This document shows positions 3,608 through 20,867 of a stretch of DNA of 20,867 nt, one piece after another. The stretch is from positions 1-20,867 of the forward strand of contig NZ_SNUY01000066.1 of NCBI RefSeq assembly GCF_004376175.1, in the 5' to 3' direction. The stretch comes from Halalkalibacterium halodurans (GTDB lineage: Bacteria > Bacillota > Bacilli > Bacillales > Bacillaceae_D). A model generated the notes under the pieces. It did not search any database. It was not told where the DNA came from and was given only the letters and a program-made list of their open reading frames with translations. A program made the translations under genes and the position numbers. How positions within the stretch are numbered: the stretch's first letter is position 1; the number at the start of each line of letters is the position of its first letter.

Positions 3608-3608
3608 T

Positions 3609-3653
3609 GGAAAAGCTAGTTTCTAGGTTAAAGCCTCGGAAGCTAGCTTTTTC
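3609..3653 (+). terminator. Rho-independent terminator candidate after the GH43 gene
   Basis: aaaagctag (3611-3619) pairs with ctagctttt (3643-3651). Inner pairings are ttc/gaa and agg/cct. The 3' arm runs into a T tract (tttttc). Confidence 0.6.
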
Positions 3654-3705
3654 TACTTTAAGAAAATGTCGAAAAGATGAAAGGGTAAAAAAAATCGCAA
3701 ATGTT

Positions 3706-3793
3706 GTCAAGATAATGGCATAAAAAAGGTTGAGAGTATGCAATAATGAAAGCGCTAACAATATTTAGTCTGAAAAGTCAGATAACACGAAGG
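3706..3793 (+). promoter_or_regulatory. Conserved regulatory cassette, copy 2 (upstream of the GH59 gene)
   Basis: Paralogous to 689-776 (see that entry). Weaker similarity with indels extends upstream: AATGTC(A/G)AAA and AATCG(T/C)AAA at about 664-688 versus about 3664-3705. Confidence 0.6.
3747..3760 (+). promoter_or_regulatory. cre site (CcpA catabolite-responsive element)
   Basis: TGAAAGCGCTAACA fits WTGNAANCGNWNNCW at all constrained positions (flanked a...a). It occupies the same position within the conserved cassette as the site at 730-743. Confidence 0.7.
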
Positions 3794-3798
3794 CGAAG

Positions 3799-3836
3799 GT
3801 TAGACCTGAAAAGGGGAGCCCCCGATTTCAGCTAAC
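3799..3836 (+). other. Stable stem-loop in the long 5' leader of the GH59 gene
   Basis: Pairings are gttag(3799-3803)/ctaac(3832-3836), ctgaaa/tttcag and gggg/cccc, giving about 15 bp with small bulges and an agc loop. No T tract follows on either strand, so it is not a canonical terminator. Confidence 0.55.
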
Positions 3837-4007
3837 ATAAACAACAAAAAGTGGAACATAACAGAGCGAAGAAGGTCAGGTTGGGCAACGGAAGACAACA
3901 CAATGAAGGAATTTGCTGACCATCCTCTATTGGAAGGGAGGGACAGATTGTTTTGCTATTTAGCTATCACAAATCGTTCGACCGATAATCAGAGGAAGGA
4001 GAATTTC

Positions 4008-7000
4008 ATGGGAACGAAAAAAAAGATGAAAGTTGCAATTGGATGGATGTGTATTATTTGCCTGCTTTTCAGCTCTATTCCGTTTATACCAACTAGCGAA
4101 ACGAAGGCGGAAGCTGCGACAAAAACGATTACCATTGATGGAAACAAGGTGGATCCCTACAACCGATTTAAAGGCTTTGGAACCGTATCAGCAAACAATA
4201 CGACTCGTTTATTGCTAGATTACAAAGAAGAGCATCCAGAAAAATATTGGGAGATTATGAATCAGTTGTTTAATAAAGAGACGGGGGCTGGGCTCACACA
4301 CGTCAAAGTAGAGCTTGGGGCCGATGTTGACTCCTCTTCTGGAACGGAACCGGCCACGATGCGCTATGCTGATGAACCAGCAAATGTGCTCAGAGGGGCT
4401 GGATTCCAATTCGCGGCAGATGCGAAATCCATCAACCCGAATATTACGACGGAAATTTTGCGCTGGGGTGAACCTCGTTGGACTTGGAATGGGGCGGCCA
4501 ATAAAGAGTATGAAAATCGCTACCAATGGTATAAACAAACAATCGATGCTGTTTATGAAGAGTATGGCTTTCAATTGGACTATATCGGAATCTCGCAAAA
4601 CGAAAGAGCGATCAACAATAATGGGCGAAATGAAGTCGAATGGCTGAAATATTTTACATCAAGAATAAAAGAGGAGCCCAATTATGAAGCAGACTATCAG
4701 GATATTAAACTAGTAGCCGCTGATGGCTATCGCGATACGGCCACCATCAGCCGGACCTTACTCGACAATCCAGACTTAATCGATGAAATCGACGTCATTA
4801 GTTCCCACTACGGGTTGACTGGATCGAATGAACTGGCTCAATTGCAAGAGAAGCTGATCGAAGATGGAAAAAAACCGAAGGAAATTTGGGTATCTGAAGG
4901 AATTGCGCCGATGATCAATGCTCGCTATCGGCTAAATATGGAGCCTCACTATAACGGGTTAGGGGGACGAGCAGGAATCATTGATGTCACGTCACGGATC
5001 ATTTCCGTCTATTCTTGGACAGGAGCAGGGAATTTGCCGCTTCAAGCCGTGTCATTTGATTTTCAACCATCGGTTGCTGCGTTTTACGAAGGGTCTAACT
5101 ACAATCCGAAACACCTCATTAGCGCATCCGACCCGTGGTCTGGCTTTTATGAAATGGACGGCGGGGTTCAAGGGGTCCGTCATGTTATGAATTTTGTCGG
5201 CTACGATGACCGGACGACACCGGAAAATGAGCGTTGGATGTATGTAAAGGATGCCACGTATAGCGATGGGAATTTCTTTGACGGTGGTGTCGATGTTGAT
5301 ACGAGTACGCATAACTACATGACTTTAAAAGACCCTGAAACGGATGACTACACGACGGTTTTTGCCAACAATACAAAACAGACACGGACGTACAAAATCG
5401 AGGCAAAAAACTTGAGTGGAAAAGAGAATGCATCCGTGTATGTTTGGGAAACTCGTGGGCCATATGCAGGACAAGCCTATGATGCGAACTGGTTTAAACA
5501 GATTAATGTCATCACACCTACGGAAGGTGAGTACGAAATTGAAGTCAAGCCGTACTCGATTGTCACGATAACGACGTTAGATAAAAAAGCGGAAATCGAC
5601 GGCTTTGAATATGAATCACAGCCGGTAGATCTTACAAAAGATACGATCATGCCATTGCCGTATACGGATGATTTTGAGTATGATCGCTATCCTGTCGATG
5701 AAAAAGGTAGAGATTACGTGGATCGTCGCGGAGGCACCCCGCGGTATACGACGGATCAGCGTGGTGCATTTGAAGTCGTGAAGGAAGCAACCAAGCCTGT
5801 CACGAAAGGAAGTGCGGAACGTACGAAGCGGGAAATACCGAATGCAGACGCTCACGGAAACATGCTTCAGCAAAAAATCACCCCTGACATCATCGGGGCT
5901 GAATGGGCTGTCTGGGGAGGGATCGATGGGGCCGAGTCAAACAGTAATCCATATACGACAATCGGTGATTTCCGTTGGGTCAACTATAAAGTGTCGTACG
6001 ACTTTTTGTTTGATACGTATACTCCTGAAGTAAGCGGTCGAGCCAATTACGCACTGATTGGCGTTCGTCAAGTGAAGGCTGGCGGCGTCGATTCCAGCGC
6101 GCCGTATAATGCTCGCATCTATACAGACGGAACATATGAAATTCTCAGGTTCGGAAACGTGGTGGAAAAGGGGACGGTTGAAGATTTCGATCAAGAGGTT
6201 TGGCATAACCTTGCGTTTGAAGCAAAAGAGAACGTGTTTACCCTTTACCTTAACGGCGAAGAAATAGCTTCTTATACGGATAAGGATGCAACCGTCATGT
6301 CTGGGCGAGTCGTGTTAGGTTCAGGTTATTATGAAACGCTGTTTGACAATGTGAAAGTGGAACCAATTGAGGGCTATACGTATGAATCAGATAAATTTGA
6401 TAATGCCCGAGGGAAAACTTACGATTCTGAAGAAGAAGCGTTAAACAACATCGATGCCAACAATCCGATCGGCTATGTTGGGAAGTGGAGTTATACGCAA
6501 GCAGGATATGCCCACTTCAATCGTACACTGATGACCGCAGCGACAGATGTCCCTGTGTGGAACGGGGTCACGGTAGGCCATCGGGATTCAACAACGGAAC
6601 AAGGAACGTTAAATAAAGTGTTCTACAATGGAAGTTGGTCTTCAAACAGTGCGAATGCGTGGGGATCTAACGGGGCTTCCTTTGAAATTACTTTTAAAGG
6701 GACAGAGATTCGGCTGTACGGTGTGACCAACCCATCGAACGGAACCGCGGACGTCTATTTAAATGGCGAGTTGGTCGGCGAAGCAAACTACTTCAACAAT
6801 AGCGAAATCACGCAAATGGTCTGGTCGCAAGATAACCTCGAAGACAAAGAGCATACCGTGAAGGTTGTCGCGAAAGAGCGGTTTACGAGCTTTAGCCGAG
6901 CAGAAATCACCACAACCGACTCTGTATTAGCTGTGAAAAAACTAGGGCCGAACGAGATTGTCAAAGTATCAGATGAGGCAGACATCGGCACAGAAGAAAA

Positions 7001-7805
7001 TACTGTCTACGCGTTTCGGAAAAATACGTCCTGGGGATCAAATAACACTAATGCGTGGGCCAACTTTGATGATGATCCGTACATTCTCATTCACTTTACG
7101 GGAACAGGCATTGATTACCTTGCAGGAACGGGAGAACAGACGCTGTACAAATTCGAGTTGGATGGTGAAGACGTCGGTAACTTTGGTGTCGATCCTAGCA
7201 CCGGCATCAGGTATTCCGTTCGAGATCTTGAGGAAGGTCCACATACGTTAAAAGTATCTTTAGGAGAGAATGAACGAAAAGAAACGTTTATGGACTATCG
7301 CGGCGTCAATATTTATAGCACCCCTCAAGCCGACAAACCGACAAGCACGATGATCTTCCAGTTTGAAGGAACAGGATTTAATTTATTCGGAGCCACTCCA
7401 GATGCGCTCATCGACGTCTATATCGACGGAGAACTAGTCGACGAAAATCATCGAGTTCATGCCAAAGGTGACAGGCAAACCTCATACCACATAAGAGGGC
7501 TAGACGATACGAAGCATCTAGCCAAAATTGACATCAAAGGCGGCACCTTTGTGTTCGATGGTCTAGACGTCATCAAAGGCTCATCGAAAAAGGAACAGGA
7601 GGATGTGAAGGGAAAGCTTCAACAGTTATACGAGGCCAATCAAGGCAAAGACAAAAAAGCCTACACGAAAGAAAGCTGGAAGGTGTTCCACAAAGCGATG
7701 CAACATGCGAAGGCGGTGTTGAAAAATCCGAATAGCTCAGTGGATAAACTAGCAGCCGCCCTGACAGCTCTGCAGGAAGCAGTCGAAGGGTTGGAAGAAA
7801 AATAA
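4008..7805 (+). CDS. Secreted GH59-family (galactocerebrosidase-like) beta-galactosidase/galactanase with a C-terminal extension of three CBM-like beta-sandwich repeats and a helical tail
   Basis: The start was moved from the track's ATG 3903 to ATG 4008. RBS GGAAGGAG lies at 3994-4001, and the N-terminus [38 protein letters not shown] is a classic Sec signal peptide. Colinear matches to human GALC, recalled from memory: [17 protein letters not shown]...[24 protein letters not shown] vs GIGAVSGGGATSRLLVNY...[31 protein letters not shown] vs DYIGIWNE (acid/base Glu); IWVSEG vs LWSSED (nucleophile Glu); [10 protein letters not shown] vs [29 protein letters not shown] vs IGDYNWTNLTIKCDVYIET (lectin domain). 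Beyond about nt 6400 there are three repeats: F(E/K/T)GT(E/G)I.LYG...DVYLNGE..G / ...HTVKV (approx 6480-6910, 7000-7270, 7340-7580). A FIVAR-like helix follows: [26 protein letters not shown]...L. Confidence 0.88.
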   Translation: [1265 protein letters not shown]

Positions 7806-10166: not shown

Positions 10167-10172
10167 TGAAAA

Positions 10173-10187
10173 TAGTAATTATTACGA
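10173..10187 (+). promoter_or_regulatory. Zur box (Fur-family 7-1-7 operator)
   Basis: TAGTAATtATTACGA matches the B. subtilis Zur consensus TCGTAATnATTACGA at 13 of 14 positions, with matching AAA/TTT flanks. It lies 7 nt downstream of the -10 and so covers the transcription start region. Confidence 0.8.
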
Positions 10188-10215
10188 TTTACAAAAAGGA
10201 TTTTAGGAGGCCCAT

Positions 10216-11415
10216 ATGAGTCAAACGATTCCGGTCACGGTTTTAAGTGGATATCTTGGATCAGGGAAAACAACGTTGCTTAATCATCTATTGAAAAATC
10301 GCCAAGGGTTAAAAATTGCGGTAATTGTCAATGACATGAGTGAAGTGAACATTGACGCCGAATTGGTGAAGCAGGGCGGTGAATTGTCTAGGACGGAAGA
10401 GAAATTAGTTGAGATGTCCAATGGCTGTATTTGCTGCACATTACGTGAGGATTTGTTAATTGAAGTCGAGAAGCTAGCACGTGCGGGAAATATTGATTAT
10501 ATCGTCATTGAATCGACCGGCATTAGCGAGCCGATCCCTGTGGCACAAACATTTTCCTACATTGACGAGGAACTTAACATTGATTTAACGAAGTTTTGCC
10601 GCTTGGATACGATGGTGACGGTTGTGGATGCGAATCGTTTTTGGCATGATTTTCGCTCAGGTGACAGCCTGCTTGATCGAAAGGAGGCGCTCGGTGAGGA
10701 AGATGAGCGGGAGATTGCCGATTTGCTTATTGATCAAATCGAGTTTTGCGATGTGCTGCTGTTAAACAAGTGTGATCTTGTGGAAGAAGCGGAGCTTGAG
10801 AAACTAGAAAGCGTGCTCAAAACTTTACAGCCAAAAGCGAAAATCATTCGCACGATTAACGCGGAGGTTGACCCGAAAGAGATATTACATACGGGGCGAT
10901 TTAACTTTGAAGAGGCGAGCAACTCTGCCGGTTGGATCCGAGAGCTTACAGCTGGACACGCGCAGCATACACCGGAAACGGAGGAATATGGGATTTCGTC
11001 GTTCGTCTATACGAGACGGGAGCCGTTCCATTCAGAACGCTTCAACCACTGGATTCATTCGATGCCTGAAAATATCGTTCGAGCTAAAGGGATTGCATGG
11101 TGCGCCACGCGAAACAACTTGGCGCTTTTACTCTCACAGGCGGGACCGTCTGTAACCATCGAGCCTGTTTCATTTTGGGTTGCCAGCCTTCCAGAGGCAG
11201 AGAAGCAGCACATTTTACGAGAAAATCCCCACTTGCTAGAGGCTTGGGATGAAACGTACGGAGATCGTCATACTAAATTAGTGTTTATTGGAACCGACTT
11301 AAACCCGGAAGAGATTACACGTGAATTAGATCACTGTCTGTTAACAGACGGAGAGTTTTCGTCGGATTGGGAGCAGCTAGAAGACCCATTCAAGTGGAAT
11401 TTGCAAAGAGCGTAG
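10216..11415 (+). CDS. zagA: COG0523 zinc metallochaperone GTPase, ZagA (YciC) orthologue
   Basis: 399 aa with RBS AGGAGG. It is near-colinear with B. subtilis YciC as recalled from memory: IPVTVLSGYLGSGKTTLLN (P-loop), MSNGCICCTLREDLL (CxCC metal motif), IVIESTGISEPIPVAQTF (switch II), LLLNKCDLV (NKxD), and the CobW_C region FVYTRREPFHSERF...VRAKGIAWCA. A Zur box lies upstream. Confidence 0.93.
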   Translation: MSQTIPVTVLSGYLGSGKTTLLNHLLKNRQGLKIAVIVNDMSEVNIDAELVKQGGELSRTEEKLVEMSNGCICCTLREDLLIEVEKLARAGNIDYIVIESTGISEPIPVAQTFSYIDEELNIDLTKFCRLDTMVTVVDANRFWHDFRSGDSLLDRKEALGEEDEREIADLLIDQIEFCDVLLLNKCDLVEEAELEKLESVLKTLQPKAKIIRTINAEVDPKEILHTGRFNFEEASNSAGWIRELTAGHAQHTPETEEYGISSFVYTRREPFHSERFNHWIHSMPENIVRAKGIAWCATRNNLALLLSQAGPSVTIEPVSFWVASLPEAEKQHILRENPHLLEAWDETYGDRHTKLVFIGTDLNPEEITRELDHCLLTDGEFSSDWEQLEDPFKWNLQRA

Positions 11416-11429
11416 ACGGCTCCTCTAAA

Positions 11430-11465
11430 AAAGATAGAGCTCAACTTTGATTGGGTTCTATCTTT
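11430..11465 (+). terminator. Weak terminator or attenuating hairpin between the two COG0523 genes
   Basis: aaagataga (11430-11438) pairs with tctatcttt (11457-11465) around an 18-nt loop. The downstream sequence is only moderately T-rich (cattgttt). Confidence 0.4.
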
Positions 11466-11475
11466 CATTGTTTAT

Positions 11476-11507
11476 AAATAAGGATAATTACGATTTATGA
11501 AACGTAA
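11476..11507 (+). promoter_or_regulatory. Degenerate Zur-like operator upstream of the second COG0523 gene
   Basis: The right half-site plus flank, ATTACGATTTA (11487-11497), is identical to the right arm of the boxes at 10181-10191 and 17612-17622. The left half TAAGGAT matches TCGTAAT at only 3 of 7 positions. The same ATTACG is also part of a second palindrome, TTACGaTTT-atg-AAACGTAA (11488-11507). Confidence 0.45.
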
Positions 11508-11540
11508 CAATAAAAGAGTACACATTTGGAGGGAGATCAA

Positions 11541-12488
11541 ATGGTGAAAGTACCGGTATTTATCTTAAGTGGTTTTTTAGGAAGCGGGAAAACAACGTTA
11601 CTGGAACGGCTGTTAGTTGAAAGTGAAAAGAGAAAACTAAAATCTGCGGTGTTAATGAATGAGATGGGAAAAACCGATACAGATGGCCAGATGATTTCAG
11701 AGAAAAGTCATCAGGTCGAAAAGTTATTAGATGGTTGTATGTGCTGCAATAAAAAAAGTGAAGTGGTTAACTGCATGGAAACGTTGTTAGCGCGAAAGCC
11801 TGACGTGCTTTTTATTGAGCTAACAGGTGTAGCCAACCCTGAAGAAGTAGTCGACTCGTTGACAGAGCCTCAGATCATTGATCGAGTGTACGTGAAGAAG
11901 ATAATTACATTAATCGATGCGGAGAATATTCTTGCTTATAACAGTTTGTTTGACTCCGATCGAGAGCTTGTAAAAACAACGAGACGGCAAGTGGAGGTAG
12001 GGGATTTCCTCATAGTTAATAAAATCGACTTAGTGTCAGATTCAAAAAAAGCGAAAATCGAAAAATTCATTAAACGGCTCAATCCTGTTGCCAAGACCGT
12101 ATTTTCTACGTACAGCAAGGTGGAGTTAGATTCACTTTTTAATACGGCACCATCCTCGATCGAGCACAACCGTATGAGACTCAAAACGAATGATCATCAT
12201 CATTCGTTTTCAAGAGTGAAAAGCATCACCTTATCCCTCTCCACACAAACAAGAAAGAAGGACATTGAAAGGTTTTTGAAAAAGTGGAAACCCCGACTAC
12301 TGAGGGCTAAAGGGTATGTTCATTTTGAGAATGGTACGTATTTGATGCAGCAGGCCATGAAGCGGGTTCAATGGTCACGTGCCCTTTTTCATGGCGAGCC
12401 GTACATTGTCTTAATCGGAATCGACTTACACGAGCATGAGATCAAAGAAGATTGGGCGCAGCTTGTGGAGAAAGCAACGGTTGGATAG
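11541..12488 (+). CDS. Short COG0523 (CobW/YjiA-like) GTPase with intact motifs
   Basis: ATG 11541 is preferred over the track's TTG 11526, with GGAGGG at 11528-11533. Motifs: P-loop GFLGSGKTTLL, CxCC GCMCC, FIELTGVANP, VNKIDLV, a His run NDHHHSF, and the CobW_C region LLRAKGYVHFENG...YIVLIGIDL. 315 aa. Confidence 0.88.
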   Translation: MVKVPVFILSGFLGSGKTTLLERLLVESEKRKLKSAVLMNEMGKTDTDGQMISEKSHQVEKLLDGCMCCNKKSEVVNCMETLLARKPDVLFIELTGVANPEEVVDSLTEPQIIDRVYVKKIITLIDAENILAYNSLFDSDRELVKTTRRQVEVGDFLIVNKIDLVSDSKKAKIEKFIKRLNPVAKTVFSTYSKVELDSLFNTAPSSIEHNRMRLKTNDHHHSFSRVKSITLSLSTQTRKKDIERFLKKWKPRLLRAKGYVHFENGTYLMQQAMKRVQWSRALFHGEPYIVLIGIDLHEHEIKEDWAQLVEKATVG

Positions 12489-12494
12489 ACGAAG

Positions 12495-12522
12495 TAGCTG
12501 CCTTATGCGGCTGCTTTTTTTT
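12495..12522 (+). terminator. Rho-independent terminator after the second COG0523 gene
   Basis: gctgcc pairs with ggctgc (one internal mismatch) around the loop ttatgc, followed by T8 (12515-12522). Confidence 0.65.
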
Positions 12523-12544
12523 GATGACTTCATTTTTTTCTAAA

Positions 12545-12559
12545 TCATAATAATTCTGA
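12545..12559 (+). promoter_or_regulatory. Fur-family 7-1-7 operator (Zur-like, specificity ambiguous) upstream of the permease pair
   Basis: taaaTCATAATaATTCTGAttta is a palindromic 7-1-7 site with Zur-type AAA/TTT flanks. It matches 11 of 14 positions to the Zur consensus, and also 11 of 14 to the Fur and PerR consensus boxes. The discriminating dinucleotide is CA in both arms (Zur CG, Fur GA, PerR TA). It overlaps a possible -10, CATAAT (12546-12551). Confidence 0.5.
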
Positions 12560-12616
12560 TTTACTGTTTGTCCGCATAGAGATGAAATAACCTACGTGCG
12601 GAGAGAAGGGAACTGG

Positions 12617-13618
12617 ATGGATACGAAACAGGATTATACGGGAGTTGTAGGTTTTCTGTTGCTTGGGCTAGCGGCGATCGTGATGGTCTTTCATAAGCAG
12701 TTCACGCTCCATCAGCTCATCTTGCCTGAATCGCTATTAACGTTCAATGTGATTTTTTTAAGTATTTTTATCGAAGCGATTCCGTTTGTGTTAATCGGTG
12801 TATTGATTGCTGGAATCATTCAAGTGTTTGTTACCGAAGCTCATCTTAAACGATTCATTCCGCAACATCCGTTCTTGGCGGTCATTTCCAGCTGTTTCAT
12901 TGGAGCGCTGTTTCCGGCGTGTGAATGCGGGATTGTTCCGATCGTGCGTCGCTTAATCGCAAAGGGAGTTCCCCTTTACGCCGGAGTAGGGTTTCTCCTG
13001 ACAGGTCCTTTGATTAATCCGATCGTGCTGTTTTCCACCTATGTGGCGTTTGGAGGAAGTCTACCGATGGCCTTTTTACGTATGTCGCTCGGGCTCGTCA
13101 TCGCCATCATTGTCGCTGGGCTGATTGCGAGTGTTTTTAGGCGAAATCAGCTAAAGCGGACAAGAGAAGATGTCACACGTGGTGAAACTGCTGGATCGAA
13201 GCCTCCGTTAGGCGAAAGGTTTAACGCGATGTTTCGACATTCAATTGATGAATTTTTTGACATGGGAAAGTTTTTAATGATCGGTGCACTGTTAGCTGCA
13301 TTCGTTCAAACCTATGTTTCAACTAGCTCTCTCCTCGGACTTAGTGAAGGGATCGTTACGTCTACGCTCATCATGATGGGACTTGCTTACCTTCTTTCTT
13401 TATGTTCAGAGGCGGATGCCTTTATTGCGGCTTCCTTTCATCATGTGTTCCCGCAAACCTCGCTCCTTGGATTTTTAATTTACGGCCCAATGTTAGATTT
13501 GAAAAATACGATCATGATGCTGGCGGTCTTTAAGTTTCGATTTGTCATGGTGCTAATGGTGATGATCACAGGCACCGTTGCGGGGATTTTGCTACTAATG
13601 CATCCATGGATTGACTAG
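12617..13618 (+). CDS. Polytopic membrane permease, COG0701 / DUF318 (ArsP_1-like) family
   Basis: ATG 12617 is preferred over the track's GTG 12596, with the GGAGAGAAGGG RBS region upstream. The protein is highly hydrophobic with about 8 or more predicted TM segments. It carries the family-typical Cys motif FPACECGIVPIVRRL and a second half with LSLCSEADAFIAASF. The stop overlaps the RBS of the next gene. Confidence 0.8.
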   Translation: MDTKQDYTGVVGFLLLGLAAIVMVFHKQFTLHQLILPESLLTFNVIFLSIFIEAIPFVLIGVLIAGIIQVFVTEAHLKRFIPQHPFLAVISSCFIGALFPACECGIVPIVRRLIAKGVPLYAGVGFLLTGPLINPIVLFSTYVAFGGSLPMAFLRMSLGLVIAIIVAGLIASVFRRNQLKRTREDVTRGETAGSKPPLGERFNAMFRHSIDEFFDMGKFLMIGALLAAFVQTYVSTSSLLGLSEGIVTSTLIMMGLAYLLSLCSEADAFIAASFHHVFPQTSLLGFLIYGPMLDLKNTIMMLAVFKFRFVMVLMVMITGTVAGILLLMHPWID

Positions 13619-13629
13619 GAGGGCAGACG

Positions 13630-14361
13630 ATGATGTACATACGCACAAACCAATTGCTGAAAGCGGTCATCTTATTGCTGTTTGCGGTGTTTCTCTTCCT
13701 GTTGCATGAGACGGGAGAGATCGCTCGGTTTATCAACCCCCAATACGTGCACCTCAGTCAAATTGCGTCGATCCTCTTCTTGTTTTTATTTTTCATCCAA
13801 GTGCCGAGAATGTTCACGAATTCAGAGGACGACCTTTGCGGGTGTGGCCTTTGGGGCTGTAGTCATGGAGAAGAAGGACGTTTTGCTATGAAGCATGTTA
13901 TTTCCTATGGACTCATCAGCTTGCCACTAATGATCGGCTTTCTGTTCCCATTTAAAGATTTTGGAGCGGCTGAAGCGCTAAAACGAGGGGTTCAGTATCA
14001 AGTATCCCAACACGAAGCACGCGATGAAGCCTCTTTAGAGAAAAATGTGCAAGAGCTGCTGGAGCAGTCTGCTTTGATATTACACCGTGACAATTTCGTT
14101 AGCTCATTGCGGGCGCTAACGACATACCCTACGCGCTTTGTTGGCAAACCAATTTTGCTAGAAGGGTTTATTATAGAGGACTGTCAGGATGAAAAGGTGA
14201 CGGTCATTACACGATTTCTCGTCACCCATTGTGTCGCGGACAGCCATGCGGCAGGATTCATCCTTGAGCATGAGGATTCATTAGGGGGAAGAGAGGATCA
14301 ATGGCTTCAAGTAATGGGTGTGTTAGATGTCAAAATAGAGACTCGGAAATTAAATAGCTAA
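13630..14361 (+). CDS. TIGR03943 / DUF1980 partner subunit of the two-component membrane permease
   Basis: RBS GGAGGG at 13618-13623. There are two N-terminal TM helices, a Cys/His cluster DDLCGCGLWGCSHGEE (about nt 13831-13875), a third TM helix, then a soluble domain with the family-typical motif THCVADSHAAGFIL. It is translationally coupled to the COG0701 permease. Confidence 0.75.
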   Translation: MMYIRTNQLLKAVILLLFAVFLFLLHETGEIARFINPQYVHLSQIASILFLFLFFIQVPRMFTNSEDDLCGCGLWGCSHGEEGRFAMKHVISYGLISLPLMIGFLFPFKDFGAAEALKRGVQYQVSQHEARDEASLEKNVQELLEQSALILHRDNFVSSLRALTTYPTRFVGKPILLEGFIIEDCQDEKVTVITRFLVTHCVADSHAAGFILEHEDSLGGREDQWLQVMGVLDVKIETRKLNS

Positions 14362-14502
14362 TTCTGGGTCTTTTGGGGGATGAAAGCGAGATTCAAGAGG
14401 ACCAATTGGAATTTTCAACGTCATTTTCAAAAAAGTGCATGTTAAATAAACCACAAGCAGTGGATTTTTTAAAAAATGTATTTTAAGATGTTGATGATGG
14501 CT

Positions 14503-16005
14503 TTATAGGGAGAGCAGAGATTTAATTATGGGATCTATAGTTGAGAAATGATTCTTTTCTGCTTCCTTCATCCAGGCATCGGCATGTTGGCACATGCCGA
14601 TGATGTAACTTCGAATATTCCAATGTCTAGAACTACGACCTCTTGAATCCTCTAAACGATAATCAATTTTTTGTCGTTTGATACAACGCTCGACCCCAGT
14701 ACGTAAAGCATAACGCTTATACCATTCCTTACTATCACGTTTTACTCTAGGAAAAAGACGAGGGTTATCCTTCGTCGATGTATAAAAGGTCCGTCCATAA
14801 GCAGATTCTGAACAAGGTGTGGGACATGTCCATTTTCCAACGACAGCTGGACAGCGCCATTTACGGCGATATCGTTTCTTATCGACTCCCCAATCGAGCA
14901 TTTTTCTACCGATGGGACAGATTGGAACGCCGTCTAAGTTAATGTCCATTTCATTGTAGATGAACTGTTTTGAACGCCTTGGATTGAGGTCAATGATGGC
15001 AGAAACATCATGGTGTTCTAACATTTCATAGATCGGATAAGCATCCAGAGCTGAGTCTAGGATGACTTCACCAAACGTCCAATCGGGATACCAATGTTTG
15101 AGTTCATGGAAGGTACTGACAAACAAGACAGAGTCATGTTTACTGGCACGATACATCCTAGGATAAATCGGTAAATCATAAGGACTATCCGAAGCAGCTA
15201 CCATGAAAAGACTTCTACCATAATAGTACTTTTCACGAGAACTATCCCAACCGTAATCAGCATCAGGGTCTGAAAACTGCCGTTGACATTGGCATTTCCA
15301 ATTACCTTGTTTACGGCAGTCACAAAGGAACTTACCATAAGGCCGACCACCTGTTATCACGGGAGATCCGTCAGCCATCATGCTTAGTGATTGGGTGTTC
15401 CCTACTAATCCTTTCGATGCGGATGGATGAACGAATAAAGACTGAAAAAGGATTTGGAGCTGGTCGTGGGCCTTGGCTGTATATCGAACTTTCTTGTTTT
15501 TTAAGGCACGCTTCACTAACTTTTGAACAATTTTCGGATTTTTCGGTTCAAGTTTCTGATTCTTTTTTCCTTTCTTTTTTGCCTTCTTTAATTTTCGCTT
15601 CTTCCGATTGGATAGATGTGGAGAAGGAGCTAACCAAAGGCGATTGAAAAAGTCATAAAAGGTTCCTACTCCAGGAACATTATCCGGAGTAAAGCCACTA
15701 AGAATAGCCCAAATGGGAGTTGTTTTTAAGGTGAACACCCATTGATCTACACTGGTAACCTTTTGATCATGCATAAGCATTAAACTACGAAGCATATCAC
15801 AAGGATTACGGGGTTTTCTTCCTCTGGGATTCGAGGAATAGCGATGTTTCAGGAGAGTGCCAGCATCGGTTAGATCAACCAAAGAACACCAAACGATAGG
15901 TTTGGAGTAAAAATCCGTTAAAAAAGTTTTGTCATCGAATTGTAGATCTAGCTGTTCAACAACAAAGTTAAGATAAGATTCATGTGTACGAATGTTAGTA
16001 AGCAT
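14503..16005 (-). CDS. DDE transposase, IS1182-like
   Basis: 500 aa. The N-terminal DUF772-like region is GRKPRNPCDMLRSLMLMH...S. A Lys-rich linker follows. The DDE region has DPDADYGWDSSREKYYYGRSLF and VILDSALDAYPIY. A Cys-rich insertion is VPICPIGRKMLDW...WRCPAVVGKWTCPTPCSES. The C-terminal region RTGVERCIKRQK has the pattern typical of IS1182/IS5-type enzymes. The family call is from memory. Confidence 0.8.
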   Translation of the reverse strand: MLTNIRTHESYLNFVVEQLDLQFDDKTFLTDFYSKPIVWCSLVDLTDAGTLLKHRYSSNPRGRKPRNPCDMLRSLMLMHDQKVTSVDQWVFTLKTTPIWAILSGFTPDNVPGVGTFYDFFNRLWLAPSPHLSNRKKRKLKKAKKKGKKNQKLEPKNPKIVQKLVKRALKNKKVRYTAKAHDQLQILFQSLFVHPSASKGLVGNTQSLSMMADGSPVITGGRPYGKFLCDCRKQGNWKCQCQRQFSDPDADYGWDSSREKYYYGRSLFMVAASDSPYDLPIYPRMYRASKHDSVLFVSTFHELKHWYPDWTFGEVILDSALDAYPIYEMLEHHDVSAIIDLNPRRSKQFIYNEMDINLDGVPICPIGRKMLDWGVDKKRYRRKWRCPAVVGKWTCPTPCSESAYGRTFYTSTKDNPRLFPRVKRDSKEWYKRYALRTGVERCIKRQKIDYRLEDSRGRSSRHWNIRSYIIGMCQHADAWMKEAEKNHFSTIDPIIKSLLSL

Positions 16006-16045
16006 AATTATTCCCCCATTTCAAGTGATGAAAAAACCTTTCACT

Positions 16046-16074
16046 TAATTATTTGAGGAACAAATGTTTGTCAA
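16046..16074 (-). promoter_or_regulatory. Sigma-A promoter for the IS transposase
   Basis: On the minus strand: TTGACA (complement of 16069-16074), a 17-nt spacer, then TAATTA (complement of 16046-16051). It lies about 40 nt upstream of the transposase ATG. Confidence 0.5.
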
Positions 16075-16113
16075 GAGGAAAGTTTGTTCGCACTCCTGTT
16101 TTGGGGGTGAAGC

Positions 16114-16144
16114 AATAAAAAAGCCCTAGTCAAAAGACTAGAGC
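16114..16144 (-). terminator. Rho-independent terminator of the rpsN2 / degenerate-COG0523 operon
   Basis: The minus-strand RNA reads gctctagtc-uuuu-gactagggc (a 9-bp stem including one G-U pair), followed by TTTTTTATT. The plus strand has no T tract after the hairpin. Confidence 0.8.
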
Positions 16145-16263
16145 TGGTGCGGAAAATTAATTTCCGAGTAGCTATTCAAACAACATGGAGGGGTTTTATT
16201 ACCTGTCATCCGCGTCATCGAGTGGGAGGAAATTGAACCTCCCGCAAACCCATACGTCTATCC

Positions 16264-17292
16264 TTAACCAAAGGCGATTCGATCATGGTTTGGTTGTAGG
16301 CACTCATGAAGGAGACGACTAAGTGCGTCACGATCTAGCTCAAAACCAATAAACAATAACTCTGTTTGAACGTCACGGTTCTCCATTAGATCTGTGGTCG
16401 TTGTGTCAACTTGAATATGGGCACCTACTTGAGAAATGGAGTGAAGCTCACCTGTTTGCGGGTTATAGCAACGCCCCTTCATGCGAAAAATGTCGTTCGG
16501 AAGATGCTCGAAAAATCGCTCCAACTGGTGAATGCCAACAGGCTGTGAGCTTTGATAGAAAAACGTATCAACCCCGTAGTTGTGGATCACTTTTACATGT
16601 TGTCGTGAAGCGACAAGGTTCCGCTGTTCCACATAAAGAGACGCATAGCCGTTCTTGTCAAAGGTTGTATGCCCCTTTTGGCAACGTTGAATGGCTTCGT
16701 GCAAATCACATAGCAACGCTCGTGGCTGGAGCACGCGTAAAAAGGCTGTAAGTTCACCGAGGCGCTCAGAGGAAAGCCCATACTGGTGATAAAGACAAAG
16801 GGTGTCCGCTAACTCTAGCTGAAGGATGAGCGCTTCCCCTAACGTTTGAGTGAAATCTTGGTCAGCGGTGATAATCTCGTGTTCTGAGAAGTAAGAAAAC
16901 CAAAACGCTTTAGCATCCAATACATGAATATGGGATGCAATGAACCAGTGATGATCTGAAGTGAATTGCTCTAAAAGGCTGTCGATGGATGAGAAAGGAG
17001 AAACATCTAAAAGAATCTCATCTGTGCTACGGTTTTGGTGCTCTTTAGCTAATAACGACATCAAATCAGCTTCGGTTGTCGCTTCCACATGATGGATCGC
17101 CTCGCCAATAAAGCTCGTGACCGGAAAAGGATCCTCACCATTTAATGTAAGCTTCATAGCTTTGGGGTGAAAGCGAATGATCTTTACGTGGTTTTGTCGG
17201 TTTTCTTGATAGCTTTTCATCAACTCTCTCTTCCCGTTTTCCGAGAAGCCTGAGATCACTGTGAGTGGCTTTTGTCTATTCAACCTCGACAC
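16264..17292 (-). CDS. Degenerate COG0523/CobW-family paralogue (predicted GTPase-dead, lacking the CxCC motif)
   Basis: 342 aa from GTG 17292. An alternative TTG at 17283 has better spacing from AAGGGG. The N-terminus aligns to the COG0523 P-loop region but reads LTVISGFSENGKRELM instead of GxxGSGKTTLL. No CxCC is present: the equivalent region is IGEAIHHVE. Switch II IESTG is replaced by LLDVSP, and NKxD by LYHQYG. The CobW_C domain is preserved: VDTFFYQSSQPVGIHQLERFFEHLPNDIFRMKGRCYNP...ELLFIGFELD. It starts 15 nt after the rpsN2 stop with no intervening terminator. Confidence 0.8.
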   Translation of the reverse strand: MSRLNRQKPLTVISGFSENGKRELMKSYQENRQNHVKIIRFHPKAMKLTLNGEDPFPVTSFIGEAIHHVEATTEADLMSLLAKEHQNRSTDEILLDVSPFSSIDSLLEQFTSDHHWFIASHIHVLDAKAFWFSYFSEHEIITADQDFTQTLGEALILQLELADTLCLYHQYGLSSERLGELTAFLRVLQPRALLCDLHEAIQRCQKGHTTFDKNGYASLYVEQRNLVASRQHVKVIHNYGVDTFFYQSSQPVGIHQLERFFEHLPNDIFRMKGRCYNPQTGELHSISQVGAHIQVDTTTTDLMENRDVQTELLFIGFELDRDALSRLLHECLQPNHDRIAFG

Positions 17293-17307
17293 CCCTTGTC
17301 TAATTCA

Positions 17308-17577
17308 TTACCAGCTTGATTTTTTCACGCCAGGAATTTGCCCTTTATGTGCAAGCTCGCGAAACGCAATCCGTGACAGCTTGAACTTGCGTAAGACGCC
17401 CCGTGGTCTGCCGGTCATTTCGCATCGTCTCGTTAACCGAGTAGGGGAGGAGTCTCGAGGAAGCTTTCGGAGTGCTTCGTAGTCACCTTTTTCTTTTAAC
17501 TCTTTTCTTAATTCTGCATAACGAGCGACGAGCTCCTGACGTTTTTTTTCCTTTGCGACTTTTGATTTCTTCGCCAT
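17308..17577 (-). CDS. rpsN2: 30S ribosomal protein S14, long zinc-independent (C-minus) paralogue
   Basis: The start was trimmed to [13 protein letters not shown]..., with ATG at the complement of 17575-17577 and RBS AAGGTGG. The 89-aa product is nearly colinear with B. subtilis YhzA/RpsN2 as recalled (...[51 protein letters not shown]). It lacks the CxxC...CxxC zinc ribbon of the 61-aa form. Confidence 0.93.
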
Positions 17578-17603
17578 AACGTTTACCACCTTTCTTTTGA
17601 AAA

Positions 17604-17618
17604 TCAAAATCATTACGA
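17604..17618 (-). promoter_or_regulatory. Zur box 1 upstream of rpsN2
   Basis: aaaTCAAAATcATTACGAttt matches the Zur consensus at 12 of 14 core positions, with a perfect right arm and flanks. It lies just downstream of a candidate minus-strand promoter, TTACTT-16-TATGAT. Confidence 0.75.
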
Positions 17619-17670
17619 TTTATATCATAGTAGAAATAGCGTCCGAAGTAAAGGGCTGTGACGAAATCAA

Positions 17671-17685
17671 TCGTAATCGTTACGG
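17671..17685 (-). promoter_or_regulatory. Zur box 2 upstream of rpsN2
   Basis: TCGTAATcGTTACGG has a perfect left arm and a right arm matching 5 of 7. It lies 67 bp from box 1. It overlaps a second possible minus-strand promoter, TTGGCT-16-TACGAT. Confidence 0.6.
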
Positions 17686-17761
17686 TTTGTTAGCCAAACT
17701 TAGTTGCTTAAGGCGATAATCACTCAGCGACAACAGAAAAAAGAGCTAATGAATCGAGCGA

Positions 17762-20278: not shown

Positions 20279-20348
20279 ATTAAAGGGTTACAATCACTCT
20301 CTGTCGAAGTATAAGCGTAACACTTATCAATGAATGGAGAGAAACCCA

Positions 20349-20867
20349 ATGACTGATTCACGTCAACATGAAATTCAAACCCTGCTTGCATTAATGAAAA
20401 CAACTAAAGATAAACGAATGTATGAACGTTATCAAGCCATCTATTTATATTTACAAGCCTATTCTAAAAAAGAGATTACTACCATGATCGGACGTTCCGA
20501 AAAAACCATCTATAATTATGTGAATGCCTATGAAGAAAAAGGGTTAGATGGTTTAACGATAGGACAATCACCGGGAGCCCCCCGTAAATTAACACCTGAA
20601 CAAGAGCATGAATTAGCTCAAGTTATCGCAACCAAACTTCCAGTTGATGTTGGTTTTCCAGCTAAGCATAATTGGACTCTGAAGATCATTGCTTCGTTTA
20701 TAGAGAAAGAATGGAACAAAAAGTATACTCTTCGTGGTGTCTCACGGCTTTTACACGATTTAGGTCTTAGTTATACGAAACCTACTTATACGCTAGCAAA
20801 AGCTGACCGAGTGAAACAAAAAGAGTTTATGGAAGAGACCTTTCCTACCTATAAAAAAAACTTTTAA
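20349..20867 (+). CDS. IS630-family transposase OrfA (HTH DNA-binding part)
   Basis: ATG 20349 with RBS GGAGAG 7 nt upstream. The HTH region is YSKKEITTMIGRSEKTIYNYVNAYEEKGLDGL, followed by GAPRKLTPEQEHEL and a winged-helix WTLKIIASFIEKEW...TLRGVSRLLHDLGLSYTKP. It ends ...TYKKNF* on an A8 run. Confidence 0.85.
   Translation: MTDSRQHEIQTLLALMKTTKDKRMYERYQAIYLYLQAYSKKEITTMIGRSEKTIYNYVNAYEEKGLDGLTIGQSPGAPRKLTPEQEHELAQVIATKLPVDVGFPAKHNWTLKIIASFIEKEWNKKYTLRGVSRLLHDLGLSYTKPTYTLAKADRVKQKEFMEETFPTYKKNF
20853..20860 (+). other. A8 slippery run at the end of IS630 orfA (candidate programmed frameshift site)
   Basis: tat AAA AAA AAc ttt taa. The A8 run is in frame as K-K-N, 2 codons before the orfA stop. 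The DDE-encoding part must lie beyond the window. Confidence 0.5.

What the first reader, a model, noticed from the sequence alone, without database searches (positions are those of the whole stretch)
16264..17577. GTPase-dead, CxCC-less COG0523 paralogue co-transcribed with the zinc-independent S14
The ORF at 16264-17292 keeps the COG0523 fold outline and a good CobW_C domain, but every functional motif has decayed. The P-loop reads GFSENGKRE instead of GxxGSGKTT. The CxCC metal site is gone (IGEAIHHVE). Switch II is LLDVSP and NKxD is LYHQYG.

It still has a long intact reading frame, starts 15 nt after the rpsN2 stop, and shares the dual Zur-box promoter and the strong terminator at 16114-16144. 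So it appears to be maintained and expressed only in zinc starvation, together with the alternative S14.

This suggests a nucleotide-independent role, such as an adaptor or assembly factor for exchanging C+ S14 for C- S14, or a ribosome-associated factor. As I recall it (unverified), mycobacterial alt-ribosomal-protein operons also encode a COG0523-related factor, which is a possible analogy. I do not know of a described pseudo-GTPase member of this family.
Basis: partly seen in the sequence, partly recalled or inferred. Interest (0 to 1): 0.78.

Follow-up and report, generated by a model that had tools for sequence, protein, structure and literature searches.

The report
Dead metallochaperone GTPase paired with zinc-free S14
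A conserved gene just downstream of the zinc-starvation form of ribosomal protein S14 encodes a relative of zinc-chaperone GTPases that has lost both its metal site and its GTP site, much like, but independently of, the mycobacterial ribosome-hibernation helper MRF.

Summary
The minus-strand ORF 16264-17283/17292 in this Halalkalibacterium halodurans window encodes a full-length COG0523 homologue. Against canonical COG0523, hhalign gives 99.9% probability. The AF2 model has pLDDT 89, and its best PDB match is YjiA.

- **G motifs.** All are non-canonical: the P-loop reads GFSENGKRE, the CxCC loop is deleted, ExxG reads LDVSP, and NKxD reads YHQY. The CTD RxKG motif survives.
- **Not a pseudogene.** About 14 orthologues in alkaliphilic Bacillaceae (28-49% identity) are intact. 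dN/dS is 0.2-0.39.
- **Linkage.** The gene almost always lies 16-99 nt downstream of an 89-aa zinc-free S14, behind conserved Zur boxes.
- **Order of decay.** A sister grade, also S14-linked, lacks CxCC but keeps Walker A.

Corrections:
- The "terminator" at 16122-16145 lies inside a strain-specific IS insertion (14335-16175).
- The likely start codon is TTG at 17283.
- A Walker-A-less COG0523-like protein is already described: Rv0106/MRF, which binds the 30S subunit.

The window protein is not an MRF member. It gives no NF047431 hit and never groups with MRF (0/200 bootstraps). It is therefore an independent, undescribed parallel.

A ribosome/S14-directed, nucleotide-independent role is the best inference, but it is untested.

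The parts
16264..17283 (-). Gene for the degenerate COG0523 paralogue. It is 339 aa from TTG at 17283; the mechanical ORF from GTG at 17292 gives 342 aa. Residue numbers in this report use the 342-aa frame.
   Evidence: NCBI-annotated orthologue P0001 (98% identity) starts at MNRQ. hhalign against canonical COG0523: probability 99.9%. AF2 pLDDT 89. Best Foldseek match is YjiA, E 2e-14.
17224..17250 (-). Degenerate Walker A / P-loop, GFSENGKRE. It aligns to GFLGSGKTT. The central Gly and the Mg-binding Ser/Thr are missing.
17083..17109 (-). IGEAIHHVE, the strand that precedes the position of the CxCC loop. The NGCxCC loop itself is deleted. H67 and E70 are conserved within the clade.
16996..17013 (-). 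LLDVSP in place of switch II / Walker B (I-E-S-T-G): Glu is replaced by Asp and Gly by Pro.
16924..16932 (-). Clade-specific H121-I-H123 on the strand before the VDA motif. Canonical proteins have T/V at these positions.
16777..16794 (-). LYHQYG in place of the guanine-specificity motif L-N-K-x-D.
16297..16569 (-). CobW_C domain (aa 242-332), the only part that Pfam recognises.
   Evidence: PF07683, E 5e-14
16474..16485 (-). RMKG, the retained RxKG motif of the C-terminal domain. This is the arginine finger in canonical COG0523 proteins.
   Evidence: PMC13001444
17292..17297 (-). Shine-Dalgarno-like AAGGGG, 8 nt upstream of the TTG start. No terminator-like site was found between S14 and this gene.
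17308..17577 (-). rpsN2: the 89-aa S14 paralogue that lacks the zinc ribbon (one Cys only).
   Evidence: PF00253 E 1e-28; NF006477 E 1e-35
17601..17621 (-). Zur box 1, AAATCGTAATGATTTTGATTT. It lies just downstream of the -10 hexamer. An equivalent box is present at -39 to -50 in all 14 orthologous loci scanned.
17624..17652 (-). Sigma-A-like promoter match: TTTACT, 17-nt spacer, TATGAT.
17668..17688 (-). Zur box 2, AAACCGTAACGATTACGATTG, upstream of the -35 hexamer.
14335..16175 (-). Strain-specific IS insertion, given as context rather than as part of the system. It has a DDE transposase at 14503-16005 and 20-nt terminal inverted repeats. It sits 88 nt downstream of the gene's stop and carries the hairpin plus T-run at 16122-16145.

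Best explanation
**What it is (shown).** This is a Zur-box-preceded two-gene unit, rpsN2 followed by a COG0523-derived pseudo-GTPase. The second protein keeps the two-domain G3E + CobW_C architecture but lacks a canonical P-loop, the CxCC metal loop, switch II and NKxD.

**How it arose (inferred from comparison).** It descends from canonical zinc-metallochaperone paralogues within the same Zur island of alkaliphilic Bacillaceae, by stepwise decay:
1. The CxCC loop and the Asp of NKxD were lost in the common ancestor with a sister grade that still has Walker A.
2. Switch II was lost next.
3. The P-loop then eroded gradually.

The position directly behind the zinc-free S14 was kept throughout.

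**What it does (inferred, untested).** The protein is made together with S14* only under severe zinc starvation. It acts without nucleotide hydrolysis or thiolate-bound zinc, as a binding or adaptor protein for S14* or the S14*-containing 30S subunit. It may escort S14* into newly assembling 30S subunits, or it may mark or modulate zinc-free 30S subunits as MRF does in mycobacteria.

This would be a convergent counterpart of MRF, not an orthologue.
For: **Homology and fold**
- hhalign against canonical COG0523: probability 99.9%, E 4e-32, over 326 columns.
- AF2 model with a 50-sequence alignment: pLDDT 89, pTM 0.89.
- Foldseek: YjiA is the top hit at E 2e-14, followed by MeaB.

**Motif loss across the clade**
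- No GxxGxGK[ST], C.CC or NKxD in P0001-P0019, whereas nearly all full-length canonical hits have them.
- No PF02492 hit.

**Selection**
- Intact 333-350 aa orthologues at 28-49% identity in Halalkalibacterium, Halalkalibacter, Alkalihalobacillus, Alkalihalobacterium, Anaerobacillus, Salipaludibacillus and Evansella.
- dN/dS is 0.20-0.39 (Fisher p = 2e-9, 1e-3 and 1e-9 for three pairs).
- In the same species pairs, dN/dS is 0.09-0.16 for the canonical 320-aa paralogue and 0.02-0.06 for S14.

**Linkage to S14**
- S14 lies immediately upstream, on the same strand, in 11 of the 12 species with an intact degenerate gene (the window species among them). It also does so in both sister-grade genomic loci that include the upstream DNA. 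Other neighbours differ between loci.
- Two of the three loci without an adjacent S14 hold truncated or frameshifted remnants.

**Regulation**
- Zur boxes are present upstream in all 14 orthologous S14-bearing loci scanned.

**Independence from MRF**
- No NF047431 hit, while MRF itself scores 559 bits and the window's canonical paralogue 197 bits.
- The family profile scores MRF at a median of 1.75 bits, against 57 bits for canonical proteins.
- In the NJ tree, PSE+SIS groups in 197/200 bootstraps and PSE+MRF in 0/200.

**Precedent for the mechanism**
- S14* serves de novo ribosome assembly late in zinc starvation (PMC5007448).
Against: - There is no direct evidence of any ribosome or S14 contact. 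The argument rests on gene order plus an analogy to a non-orthologous protein.
- The whole neighbourhood is a Zur island rich in COG0523 genes. Adjacency to S14 could therefore partly reflect the history of tandem duplication rather than partnership.
- Halalkalibacter oceani keeps an intact copy behind its own Zur box, with no S14 within 4 kb. Cis-coupling is therefore not obligatory.
- B. subtilis and most bacteria use S14* without such a factor.
- The RxKG arginine finger is strictly retained. It has no obvious use in a nucleotide-free adaptor, unless it serves as an interdomain latch.
- The H. halodurans and Salipaludibacillus proteins still fit GxxxxGK / GxxxxGKT. Residual nucleotide binding is therefore not excluded.
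- Transcription, Zur control and the TTG start codon are predictions.
Confidence: 0.45

Rival explanations
1. **Regulatory pseudoenzyme for canonical COG0523 metallochaperones.** The protein pairs with one of the active COG0523 paralogues in the same Zur regulon. It either supplies its intact RxKG arginine finger in trans (GAP-like) or blocks their closed state. This would tune zinc delivery during severe starvation. On this reading, the S14 linkage is only co-regulation.
For: - R270 and K272 are 100% conserved and G273 is 86% conserved in the degenerate clade, although the protein's own G site is gone.
- In ZigA and MigC, RxKG is the catalytic arginine finger, and an isolated cognate CTD can supply it in trans at low-micromolar Km (PMC13001444).
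- Two to four canonical COG0523 genes lie in the same island in most loci.
Against: - In the published experiments, trans rescue worked only for the cognate CTD, and only on RxK-mutant hosts.
- The fixed neighbour is S14, not any particular canonical paralogue. Those vary in distance, strand and number.
- RxKG, together with the equally conserved Q158/E160, can be explained as an interdomain latch (the open-state salt bridge described in PMC13001444).
- MRF also keeps the Arg (RTRG) and works on ribosomes.
Confidence: 0.2
2. **Remodelled metal sensor or buffer.** The thiolate CxCC site was replaced by a His/Glu/Asp site built from H67, E70, D96, H121 and H123. Through this site the protein binds zinc or another metal more weakly. 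It then reports or buffers metal status, for example by metal-dependent stability as in MRF.
For: - These residues are at least 86% conserved in the clade at positions where canonical proteins have Leu/Gly/Cys/Glu/Thr.
- His content is about double that of canonical paralogues (4.0% against 1.9%).
- MRF binds zinc through Cys and His residues in the equivalent region, and zinc controls its Clp-dependent turnover (PMC7431043).
Against: - No coordinates were available, so I could not test whether these residues cluster in space.
- MAFFT and hhalign place H67 and E70 differently relative to the lost loop.
- H138 and E137 are not conserved in the Evansella and Salipaludibacillus members.
- This reading is compatible with the ribosome hypothesis rather than exclusive of it.
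Confidence: 0.12
3. **Non-functional relic.** The gene is a decaying duplicate carried along in the rpsN2 transcript. It has not yet been disrupted.
For: - All catalytic motifs are lost.
- Nonsynonymous rates are 2-3 times higher than in the canonical paralogue.
- Two genomes hold truncated or frameshifted copies.
- One close species pair has Nd 18.5 against Sd 2.5.
Against: - The reading frame of about 340 codons is open in at least 14 species at 28-49% identity.
- dN/dS is significantly below 1 in the pairs with enough substitutions. The one deviant pair is not significant (p = 0.4), and its neighbouring genes are also elevated.
- About 35 positions show clade-specific conservation of at least 86%, which indicates new constraints.
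- The AF2 model is confident.
Confidence: 0.04

Closest known systems
MRF (MPY recruitment factor; MSMEG_6069 / Rv0106; NCBIfam NF047431), Mycobacterium
   Same: - COG0523-derived two-domain protein without Walker A, switch II (VHLAP here, LDVSP in the window protein) or NKxD.
- Keeps the CTD arginine (RTRG).
- Zur-regulated and encoded with zinc-free ribosomal protein paralogues, including S14.
- Lack of GTPase activity was predicted as early as 2009 (PMC2770081).
- Binds the 30S subunit (PMC7431043).
   Different: - Not orthologous. The window protein gives no NF047431 hit, its family profile scores MRF at about 2 bits, and the two never group in the tree (0/200).
- MRF keeps a CxxC plus His zinc site that controls its stability. 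In the window protein that loop is deleted.
- MRF sits at the end of a four-gene alternative r-protein operon. Here the gene follows S14 alone.
- MRF's partner MPY has no established counterpart requirement in Bacillaceae.
Canonical zinc-linked COG0523 GTPases (ZigA, ZagA/YciC, YjiA, ZNG1), including the window's own paralogues at 10216-11415 and 11526-12488
   Same: - Same fold and domain order.
- Same Zur regulon and genomic island.
- Shared QxE, RxKG, SQxG and FIG signatures and the C-terminal Cys.
- YjiA is the best structural match.
   Different: - Lacks GxxGxGK[ST], CxCC, ExxG and NKxD.
- No PF02492 hit.
- ZigA model score is 48 bits against a cutoff of 600, while the window's 399-aa paralogue scores 530.
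- It therefore cannot work as a GTP-driven thiolate-zinc chaperone.
CxCC-less, Walker-A-positive S14-linked COG0523 proteins of Anaerobacillus, Alkalihalobacterium sp. APHAB7, Ammoniphilus and Alteribacillus (P0020-P0025, P0167-P0169; undescribed)
   Same: - Closest relatives; PSE+SIS groups in 197/200 bootstraps.
- Same length.
- CxCC is lost and NKxD is degraded to NKxN/K.
- Same position directly downstream of the 89-aa S14.
   Different: - They keep GxxGxGK[ST] and the switch II Glu, and PF02492 still detects them.
- They may still bind or hydrolyse a nucleotide.
- They represent the intermediate stage of decay.

Membership tests
COG0523 / G3E P-loop GTPases (as active enzymes) | Walker A / G1 motif GxxGxGK[ST] | tested here: not met
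   The window protein reads GFSENGKRE: no central Gly, and Arg in place of Ser/Thr. Most orthologues read GFSLKDKC.
COG0523 / G3E P-loop GTPases (as active enzymes) | CxCC high-affinity metal motif | tested here: not met
   No C.CC anywhere in the protein or in P0001-P0025. hhalign shows the NGCxCC loop as a deletion.
COG0523 / G3E P-loop GTPases (as active enzymes) | Switch II / Walker B ExxG and guanine-specificity NKxD | tested here: not met
   LDVSP and YHQY occupy the aligned positions. Glu to Asp and Gly to Pro are conserved across the clade.
COG0523 / G3E P-loop GTPases (as active enzymes) | GTP binding and hydrolysis | not testable with these tools
   This needs purified protein. Sequence predicts loss, but GxxxxGK persists in this species.
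COG0523 superfamily (by descent and fold) | Full-length homology to the G-domain plus the CobW_C domain with RxKG | tested here: met
   - hhalign probability 99.9%, E 4e-32.
- PF07683, E 5e-14.
- RMKG retained.
- AF2 pLDDT 89; Foldseek YjiA E 2e-14.
- The Pfam G-domain model PF02492 does not detect it.
MRF (NF047431, ribosome hibernation factor-recruiting protein) | Score above the curated cutoff of the equivalog model (375 bits) | tested here: not met
   No hit at E<=1 for the window protein. None for P0007, and 17 bits for P0014. MRF P0172 scores 559 bits.
MRF (NF047431, ribosome hibernation factor-recruiting protein) | Common ancestry of the Walker-A-less state | tested here: not met
   - In the NJ tree, PSE+MRF groups in 0/200 bootstraps.
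- PSE is nested in a Walker-A-positive grade (197/200).
- This is a distance method on divergent sequences, so it is indicative only.
MRF (NF047431, ribosome hibernation factor-recruiting protein) | CxxC plus His zinc site that controls stability | tested here: not met
   The loop is deleted and no CxxC is present. The MRF feature is taken from PMC7431043.
MRF (NF047431, ribosome hibernation factor-recruiting protein) | Zur-controlled co-expression with zinc-free ribosomal protein paralogues | tested here: inconclusive
   Gene order and Zur boxes fit. No expression data were available.
MRF (NF047431, ribosome hibernation factor-recruiting protein) | Binds the 30S subunit and recruits a hibernation factor | not testable with these tools
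   Requires ribosome fractionation or cryo-EM.
Bacillus-type Zur regulon | Zur box (AAATCGTAATNATTACGATTT) overlapping the promoter | tested here: met
   - Two boxes with 2 and 3 mismatches flank the -35/-10 match.
- Only 5 such sites occur in the 20.9-kb window, all in intergenic regions ahead of zinc-related genes.
- The box is conserved in all 14 orthologous loci scanned.

The most novel reading that the evidence does not exclude
The protein is a dedicated escort for the zinc-free S14: a bacterial ribosomal-protein chaperone that evolved from a metallochaperone by discarding both metal and nucleotide sites. It would bind newly made S14* and deliver it to nascent 30S subunits in severe zinc starvation. 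Together with the independently evolved MRF, this would mean that association with the small ribosomal subunit is an old, general property of the COG0523 scaffold and not a mycobacterial peculiarity.
Probability: 0.2. Interest if true: 0.8.

Novelty: new variant of a known kind. Interest (0 to 1): 0.6.

Why it matters
**The open question.** The clients and mechanism of COG0523 proteins are a long-standing problem in metal homeostasis. The only ribosome-linked, Walker-A-less member known so far is mycobacterial MRF.

**What this lineage adds**
- It is a second, independent lineage that lost the metal and nucleotide sites while staying tied to the zinc-free S14.
- Living intermediates (CxCC lost, Walker A kept) show the order of decay.
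- It argues that the COG0523 scaffold has a nucleotide-independent, probably ribosome-directed activity. Reviews have so far only speculated about this (PMC11672702).

**Why it is tractable**
- The strict retention of the RxKG arginine finger without a GTP site is a clean natural test of what that motif does besides catalysis.
- The system sits in a cultivable, genetically accessible Bacillus relative.
- The clade is narrow (alkaliphilic Bacillaceae), so the general impact depends on experiments.

Tried and rejected
1. **Sequence-profile search of the PDB** with the 7-member family alignment. It gave no hit at E<=1. Only the fold search found YjiA.
2. **First AF2 run** with 7 sequences. It gave pLDDT 64.8. 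It was superseded by the 50-sequence run at pLDDT 89.
3. **The search for related loci with the 19-sequence alignment.** It failed because no stretch was conserved enough. The 7-sequence alignment worked.
4. **Orthology to MRF.** Rejected.
5. **Motifs shifted rather than lost.** Rejected by hhalign and regular-expression scans.
6. **Pseudogene.** Rejected on dN/dS and conservation.
7. **Native terminator at 16114-16144.** Rejected; it is IS-borne.
8. **Net charge or pI as a discriminator** between an r-protein escort and other roles. It was uninformative, because all COG0523 groups are acidic (pI about 5).
9. **Rfam scan of the window.** No RNA family was found.
10. **Literature.** No paper in the held library combines "pseudo-GTPase" with COG0523. 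None with "halodurans" was among the 10 papers listed for that term combined with Zur, S14 or yciC.
11. **Spatial clustering of H67/E70/D96/H121/H123.** Not testable, because model coordinates are not exposed.
Full report
**1. What is in the window**

The window matches Halalkalibacterium (Bacillus) halodurans. The best database relative of the target protein is 98% identical and named from that species. Other strains align at 98-99% DNA identity.

The finding's ORF is on the minus strand at 16264-17292 (342 aa from GTG). A TTG at 17283 is the more plausible start:
- AAGGGG sits 8 nt upstream of it.
- NCBI's call and all orthologue N-termini (MEKQ...) agree with it.

Directly upstream, on the same strand, lies an 89-aa S14 (17308-17577). 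It matches the long-form S14 model (NF006477, E 1e-35) and has a single Cys, so it is the zinc-independent paralogue.

Upstream of S14 there is a -35/-10 match (17624-17652) bracketed by two Zur boxes (17601-17621 and 17668-17688, with 2 and 3 mismatches to the Bacillus consensus). The only other such matches in the 20.9-kb window precede two canonical COG0523 genes and a permease gene (10170, 11476, 12542). The region from 10.1 to 17.7 kb is therefore a Zur island. It contains:
- two bona fide COG0523 genes (10216-11415 and 11526-12488),
- an ArsP_1/DUF1980 permease pair,
- and, convergent to them, rpsN2 plus the target gene.

**2. The observation**

Pfam sees only CobW_C (aa 242-332, E 5e-14) and no cobW G-domain, even at E<=1. 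NCBIfam gives only a partial ZigA match of 48 bits against a cutoff of 600.

The protein is nevertheless a full-length COG0523 homologue:
- hhalign of a 7-orthologue profile against 28 canonical COG0523 proteins gives probability 99.9% and E 4e-32 over 326 columns.
- An AF2 model built with a 50-sequence alignment has pLDDT 89 and pTM 0.89, with the alternating strand-helix order of a P-loop NTPase followed by a beta-rich CTD.
- Its best PDB matches are the three YjiA entries (E 2-4e-14), then MeaB.

The profile alignment places each quoted string opposite a canonical motif:

| Window protein | Canonical counterpart |
|---|---|
| GFSENGKRE | GFLGSGKTT |
| (deletion) | NGCxCC loop |
| LDVSP | ESTG |
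| YHQYG | NKxD |

The motifs are therefore lost, not shifted.

One motif is strictly kept: RMKG (16474-16485). This is the RxKG "arginine finger" of the COG0523 CTD (PMC13001444).

**3. Family, selection and linkage**

*Distribution.* An exhaustive profile search of 1.84 billion representatives found about 19 close relatives without any G motif or CxCC (P0001-P0019). All named ones come from alkaliphilic Bacillaceae: Halalkalibacterium, Halalkalibacter, Alkalihalobacillus, Alkalihalobacterium, Anaerobacillus sp. MEB173, Salipaludibacillus and Evansella.

*Sister grade.* Next come 5-8 proteins of the same length that lack CxCC and the Asp of NKxD but keep GxxGxGK[ST] and the switch II Glu. They come from Anaerobacillus alkaliphilus and A. 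alkalidiazotrophicus, Alkalihalobacterium sp. APHAB7, Ammoniphilus and Alteribacillus. Ordinary COG0523 proteins follow after these.

*Tree.* In a bootstrapped NJ tree:
- the degenerate clade is monophyletic (200/200);
- it is nested within the Walker-A-positive grade (197/200).

*Erosion of the P-loop.* It is gradual inside the clade: Salipaludibacillus still reads GMTEQGKT, H. halodurans GFSENGKR, and most others GFSLKDKC.

*Selection.* Pairwise Nei-Gojobori dN/dS is 0.20-0.39 for pairs with dS 0.03-1.0, and differs significantly from neutrality (p = 2e-9, 1e-3, 1e-9). One very close pair has Sd 2.5 and Nd 18.5; this is not significant, and its neighbouring genes are also elevated. In the same species pairs:
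- S14 has omega 0.02-0.06;
- the canonical 320-aa paralogue has omega 0.09-0.16.

The target is therefore constrained, though 2-3 times more loosely than its active paralogue. About 35 positions are at least 86% conserved within the clade but differ from canonical proteins. These include H67, E70, D96, H121-x-H123, C275 and the block FWFxYxSEH.

*Linkage.* In 11 of the 12 species with an intact degenerate gene (the window species among them), an 89-aa S14 lies directly upstream on the same strand (gap 16-99 nt). It also does so in both sister-grade genomic loci that include the upstream DNA (gaps 32 and 247 nt as called). The remaining neighbours differ between loci. A Zur box sits at -39 to -50 from the S14 ATG in all 14 orthologous loci scanned.

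*Exceptions.* They are informative:
- B. solitudinis keeps only a 202-aa 3' fragment, and Bacillus sp. JCM 19034 only a frameshifted fragment. Both lack the adjacent S14.
- H. oceani has an intact copy behind its own Zur box, with no S14 within 4 kb.

**4. Corrections to the finding**

The hairpin plus T-run at 16122-16145 lies inside a 1.84-kb IS element:
- It spans 14335-16175, with a DDE transposase at 14503-16005 and 20-nt inverted repeats.
- It is absent from other H. halodurans strains. There, the target gene's stop overlaps the end of the convergent DUF1980 gene by 4 nt.
- The insertion lies 88 nt downstream of the target's stop and truncates DUF1980 (243 aa against 263 aa).

The native operon therefore has no such terminator.

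The claim that no pseudo-GTPase member of this family has been described is also incorrect. Haas et al. 2009 noted that Rv0106 lacks Walker A, has CXSC instead of CXCC, and probably has no GTPase activity (PMC2770081). That protein was later named MRF.

**5. Relation to MRF**

MRF is expressed with the C- ribosomal proteins under Zur, binds the 30S subunit and recruits the hibernation factor MPY. Zinc bound at its CxxC/His site makes it a Clp substrate (PMC6094098, PMC7431043).

I recovered Rv0106 (P0172), which scores 559 bits on NCBIfam NF047431 (cutoff 375). By comparison:

| Protein | Score on NF047431 |
|---|---|
| MRF, P0172 | 559 bits |
| Window protein | no hit at E<=1 |
| Sister grade, P0022 | 67 bits |
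| Window's canonical 399-aa paralogue | 197 bits |

The family profile scores MRF proteins at a median of 1.75 bits, against 57 bits for canonical proteins. The canonical set consists of the best hits of the search, so this comparison is biased, but the direction is clear. PSE+MRF never groups in the tree (0/200).

Because Walker-A-positive relatives sit between the two groups, the loss of the P-loop happened independently in each. The parallel extends to detail: both replaced the switch II Gly by Pro (LDVSP and VHLAP), and both keep the CTD Arg. The window protein works like MRF only by analogy. It is not a member of that family.

**6. Mechanism**

*Shown.*
- Descent from COG0523, loss of the canonical motifs, and purifying selection.
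- Conserved S14-target gene order behind Zur boxes.

*Inferred.*
- Co-transcription: the gap is 24 nt, with no terminator-like or promoter-like site between the genes.
- Zinc-starvation-only expression.
- Absence of GTP hydrolysis.

*Best explanation (confidence 0.45).* The protein is a nucleotide-independent binding protein for S14* or for S14*-containing 30S subunits. In B. subtilis, S14 is an essential early-assembly protein and S14* exists to allow de novo ribosome synthesis late in zinc starvation (PMC5007448). A partner made stoichiometrically with S14* would therefore most plausibly act during 30S assembly as an escort, or on the finished zinc-free 30S subunit as MRF does. Swapping S14 on mature ribosomes is unlikely.

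*Rivals.*
- **Regulator or trans-GAP of the canonical paralogues (0.2).** This is prompted by the conserved RxKG.
- **Remodelled His/Glu metal sensor (0.12).** This is compatible with the main idea.
- **Relic (0.04).**

The retained RxKG and Q158/E160 may simply preserve the interdomain latch described for the open state of ZigA and MigC.

**7. Novelty and score**

The kind, a Walker-A-less COG0523-like protein tied to zinc-free ribosomal proteins, is known from mycobacteria. This Bacillaceae family is not described in the searched literature. It fails the MRF model and is more completely degenerate, with no Cys motif at all. It also comes with extant intermediates.

I rate it a new variant of a known kind, with interest 0.6. 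It is surprising and useful to specialists in zinc homeostasis and ribosome remodelling. However, it is taxonomically narrow, and its functional claim is untested.

Noticed in passing
window 14335-16175: A 1.84-kb IS element is inserted in this strain only. It has a 500-aa DDE transposase at 14503-16005 (minus strand) and 20-nt terminal inverted repeats at 14334-14353 and 16157-16176. It cuts the 3' end of the DUF1980 permease-partner gene (243 aa against 263 aa in IS-free strains). It also carries an outward-blocking hairpin plus T-run at 16122-16145.
   Followed up: yes
window 10170-14361: Zur-box matches at 10170 (1 mismatch), 11476 and 12542 precede two canonical COG0523 genes (399 aa with CICC; 320 aa with CMCC) and an ArsP_1 + DUF1980 two-part permease. 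Together with rpsN2 this forms a roughly 7.5-kb Zur island. In Anaerobacillus the same genes form one co-directional array with S14 in the middle (L018).
   Followed up: partly
window 16924-16932, 17083-17109, 16996-17013 (residues H121/H123, H67/E70, D96): Clade-specific conserved His, Glu and Asp residues sit at or near the former metal and nucleotide site. His content is double that of canonical paralogues. This may be a remodelled N/O-ligand metal site.
   Followed up: partly
P0162 (Salipaludibacillus sp. LMS25), compared with the window protein: One member of the degenerate clade still has a formally intact Walker A (GMTEQGKT) while lacking switch II, NKxD and CxCC. P-loop erosion is therefore gradual and lineage-specific.
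   Followed up: partly
L005/L016 (Bacillus solitudinis), L017 (Bacillus sp. JCM 19034), L013 (Halalkalibacter oceani): Two genomes hold truncated or frameshifted remnants of the gene without the adjacent S14. H. oceani has an intact copy with its own Zur box (about 3912-3932 in L013) but no S14 within 4 kb. Whether rpsN2 exists elsewhere in these genomes was not checked.
   Followed up: partly
L010 vs L011 (Halalkalibacter alkaliphilus vs H. flavus): This very close pair shows 18.5 nonsynonymous against 2.5 synonymous differences in the target gene (omega about 2; not significant, p = 0.4). The neighbouring DUF1980 gene is also elevated (0.82).
   Followed up: partly
P0134, P0150 (metagenomic, unnamed): These are Walker-A-less COG0523-like proteins of 414 and 426 aa with a CxxC motif. 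They group with mycobacterial MRF in the NJ tree (166/200). They may be MRF-like proteins outside Mycobacterium. Their source organisms are unknown.
   Followed up: no
window 20334-20867 and 788-7805: The window ends in a partial ORF with HTH/Terminase_5-type domains typical of IS630-like transposase N-termini. Its 5' third encodes two very large secreted glycoside hydrolases (GH43-like of 939 aa and GH59-like of 1300 aa). Both are unrelated to the finding.
   Followed up: no
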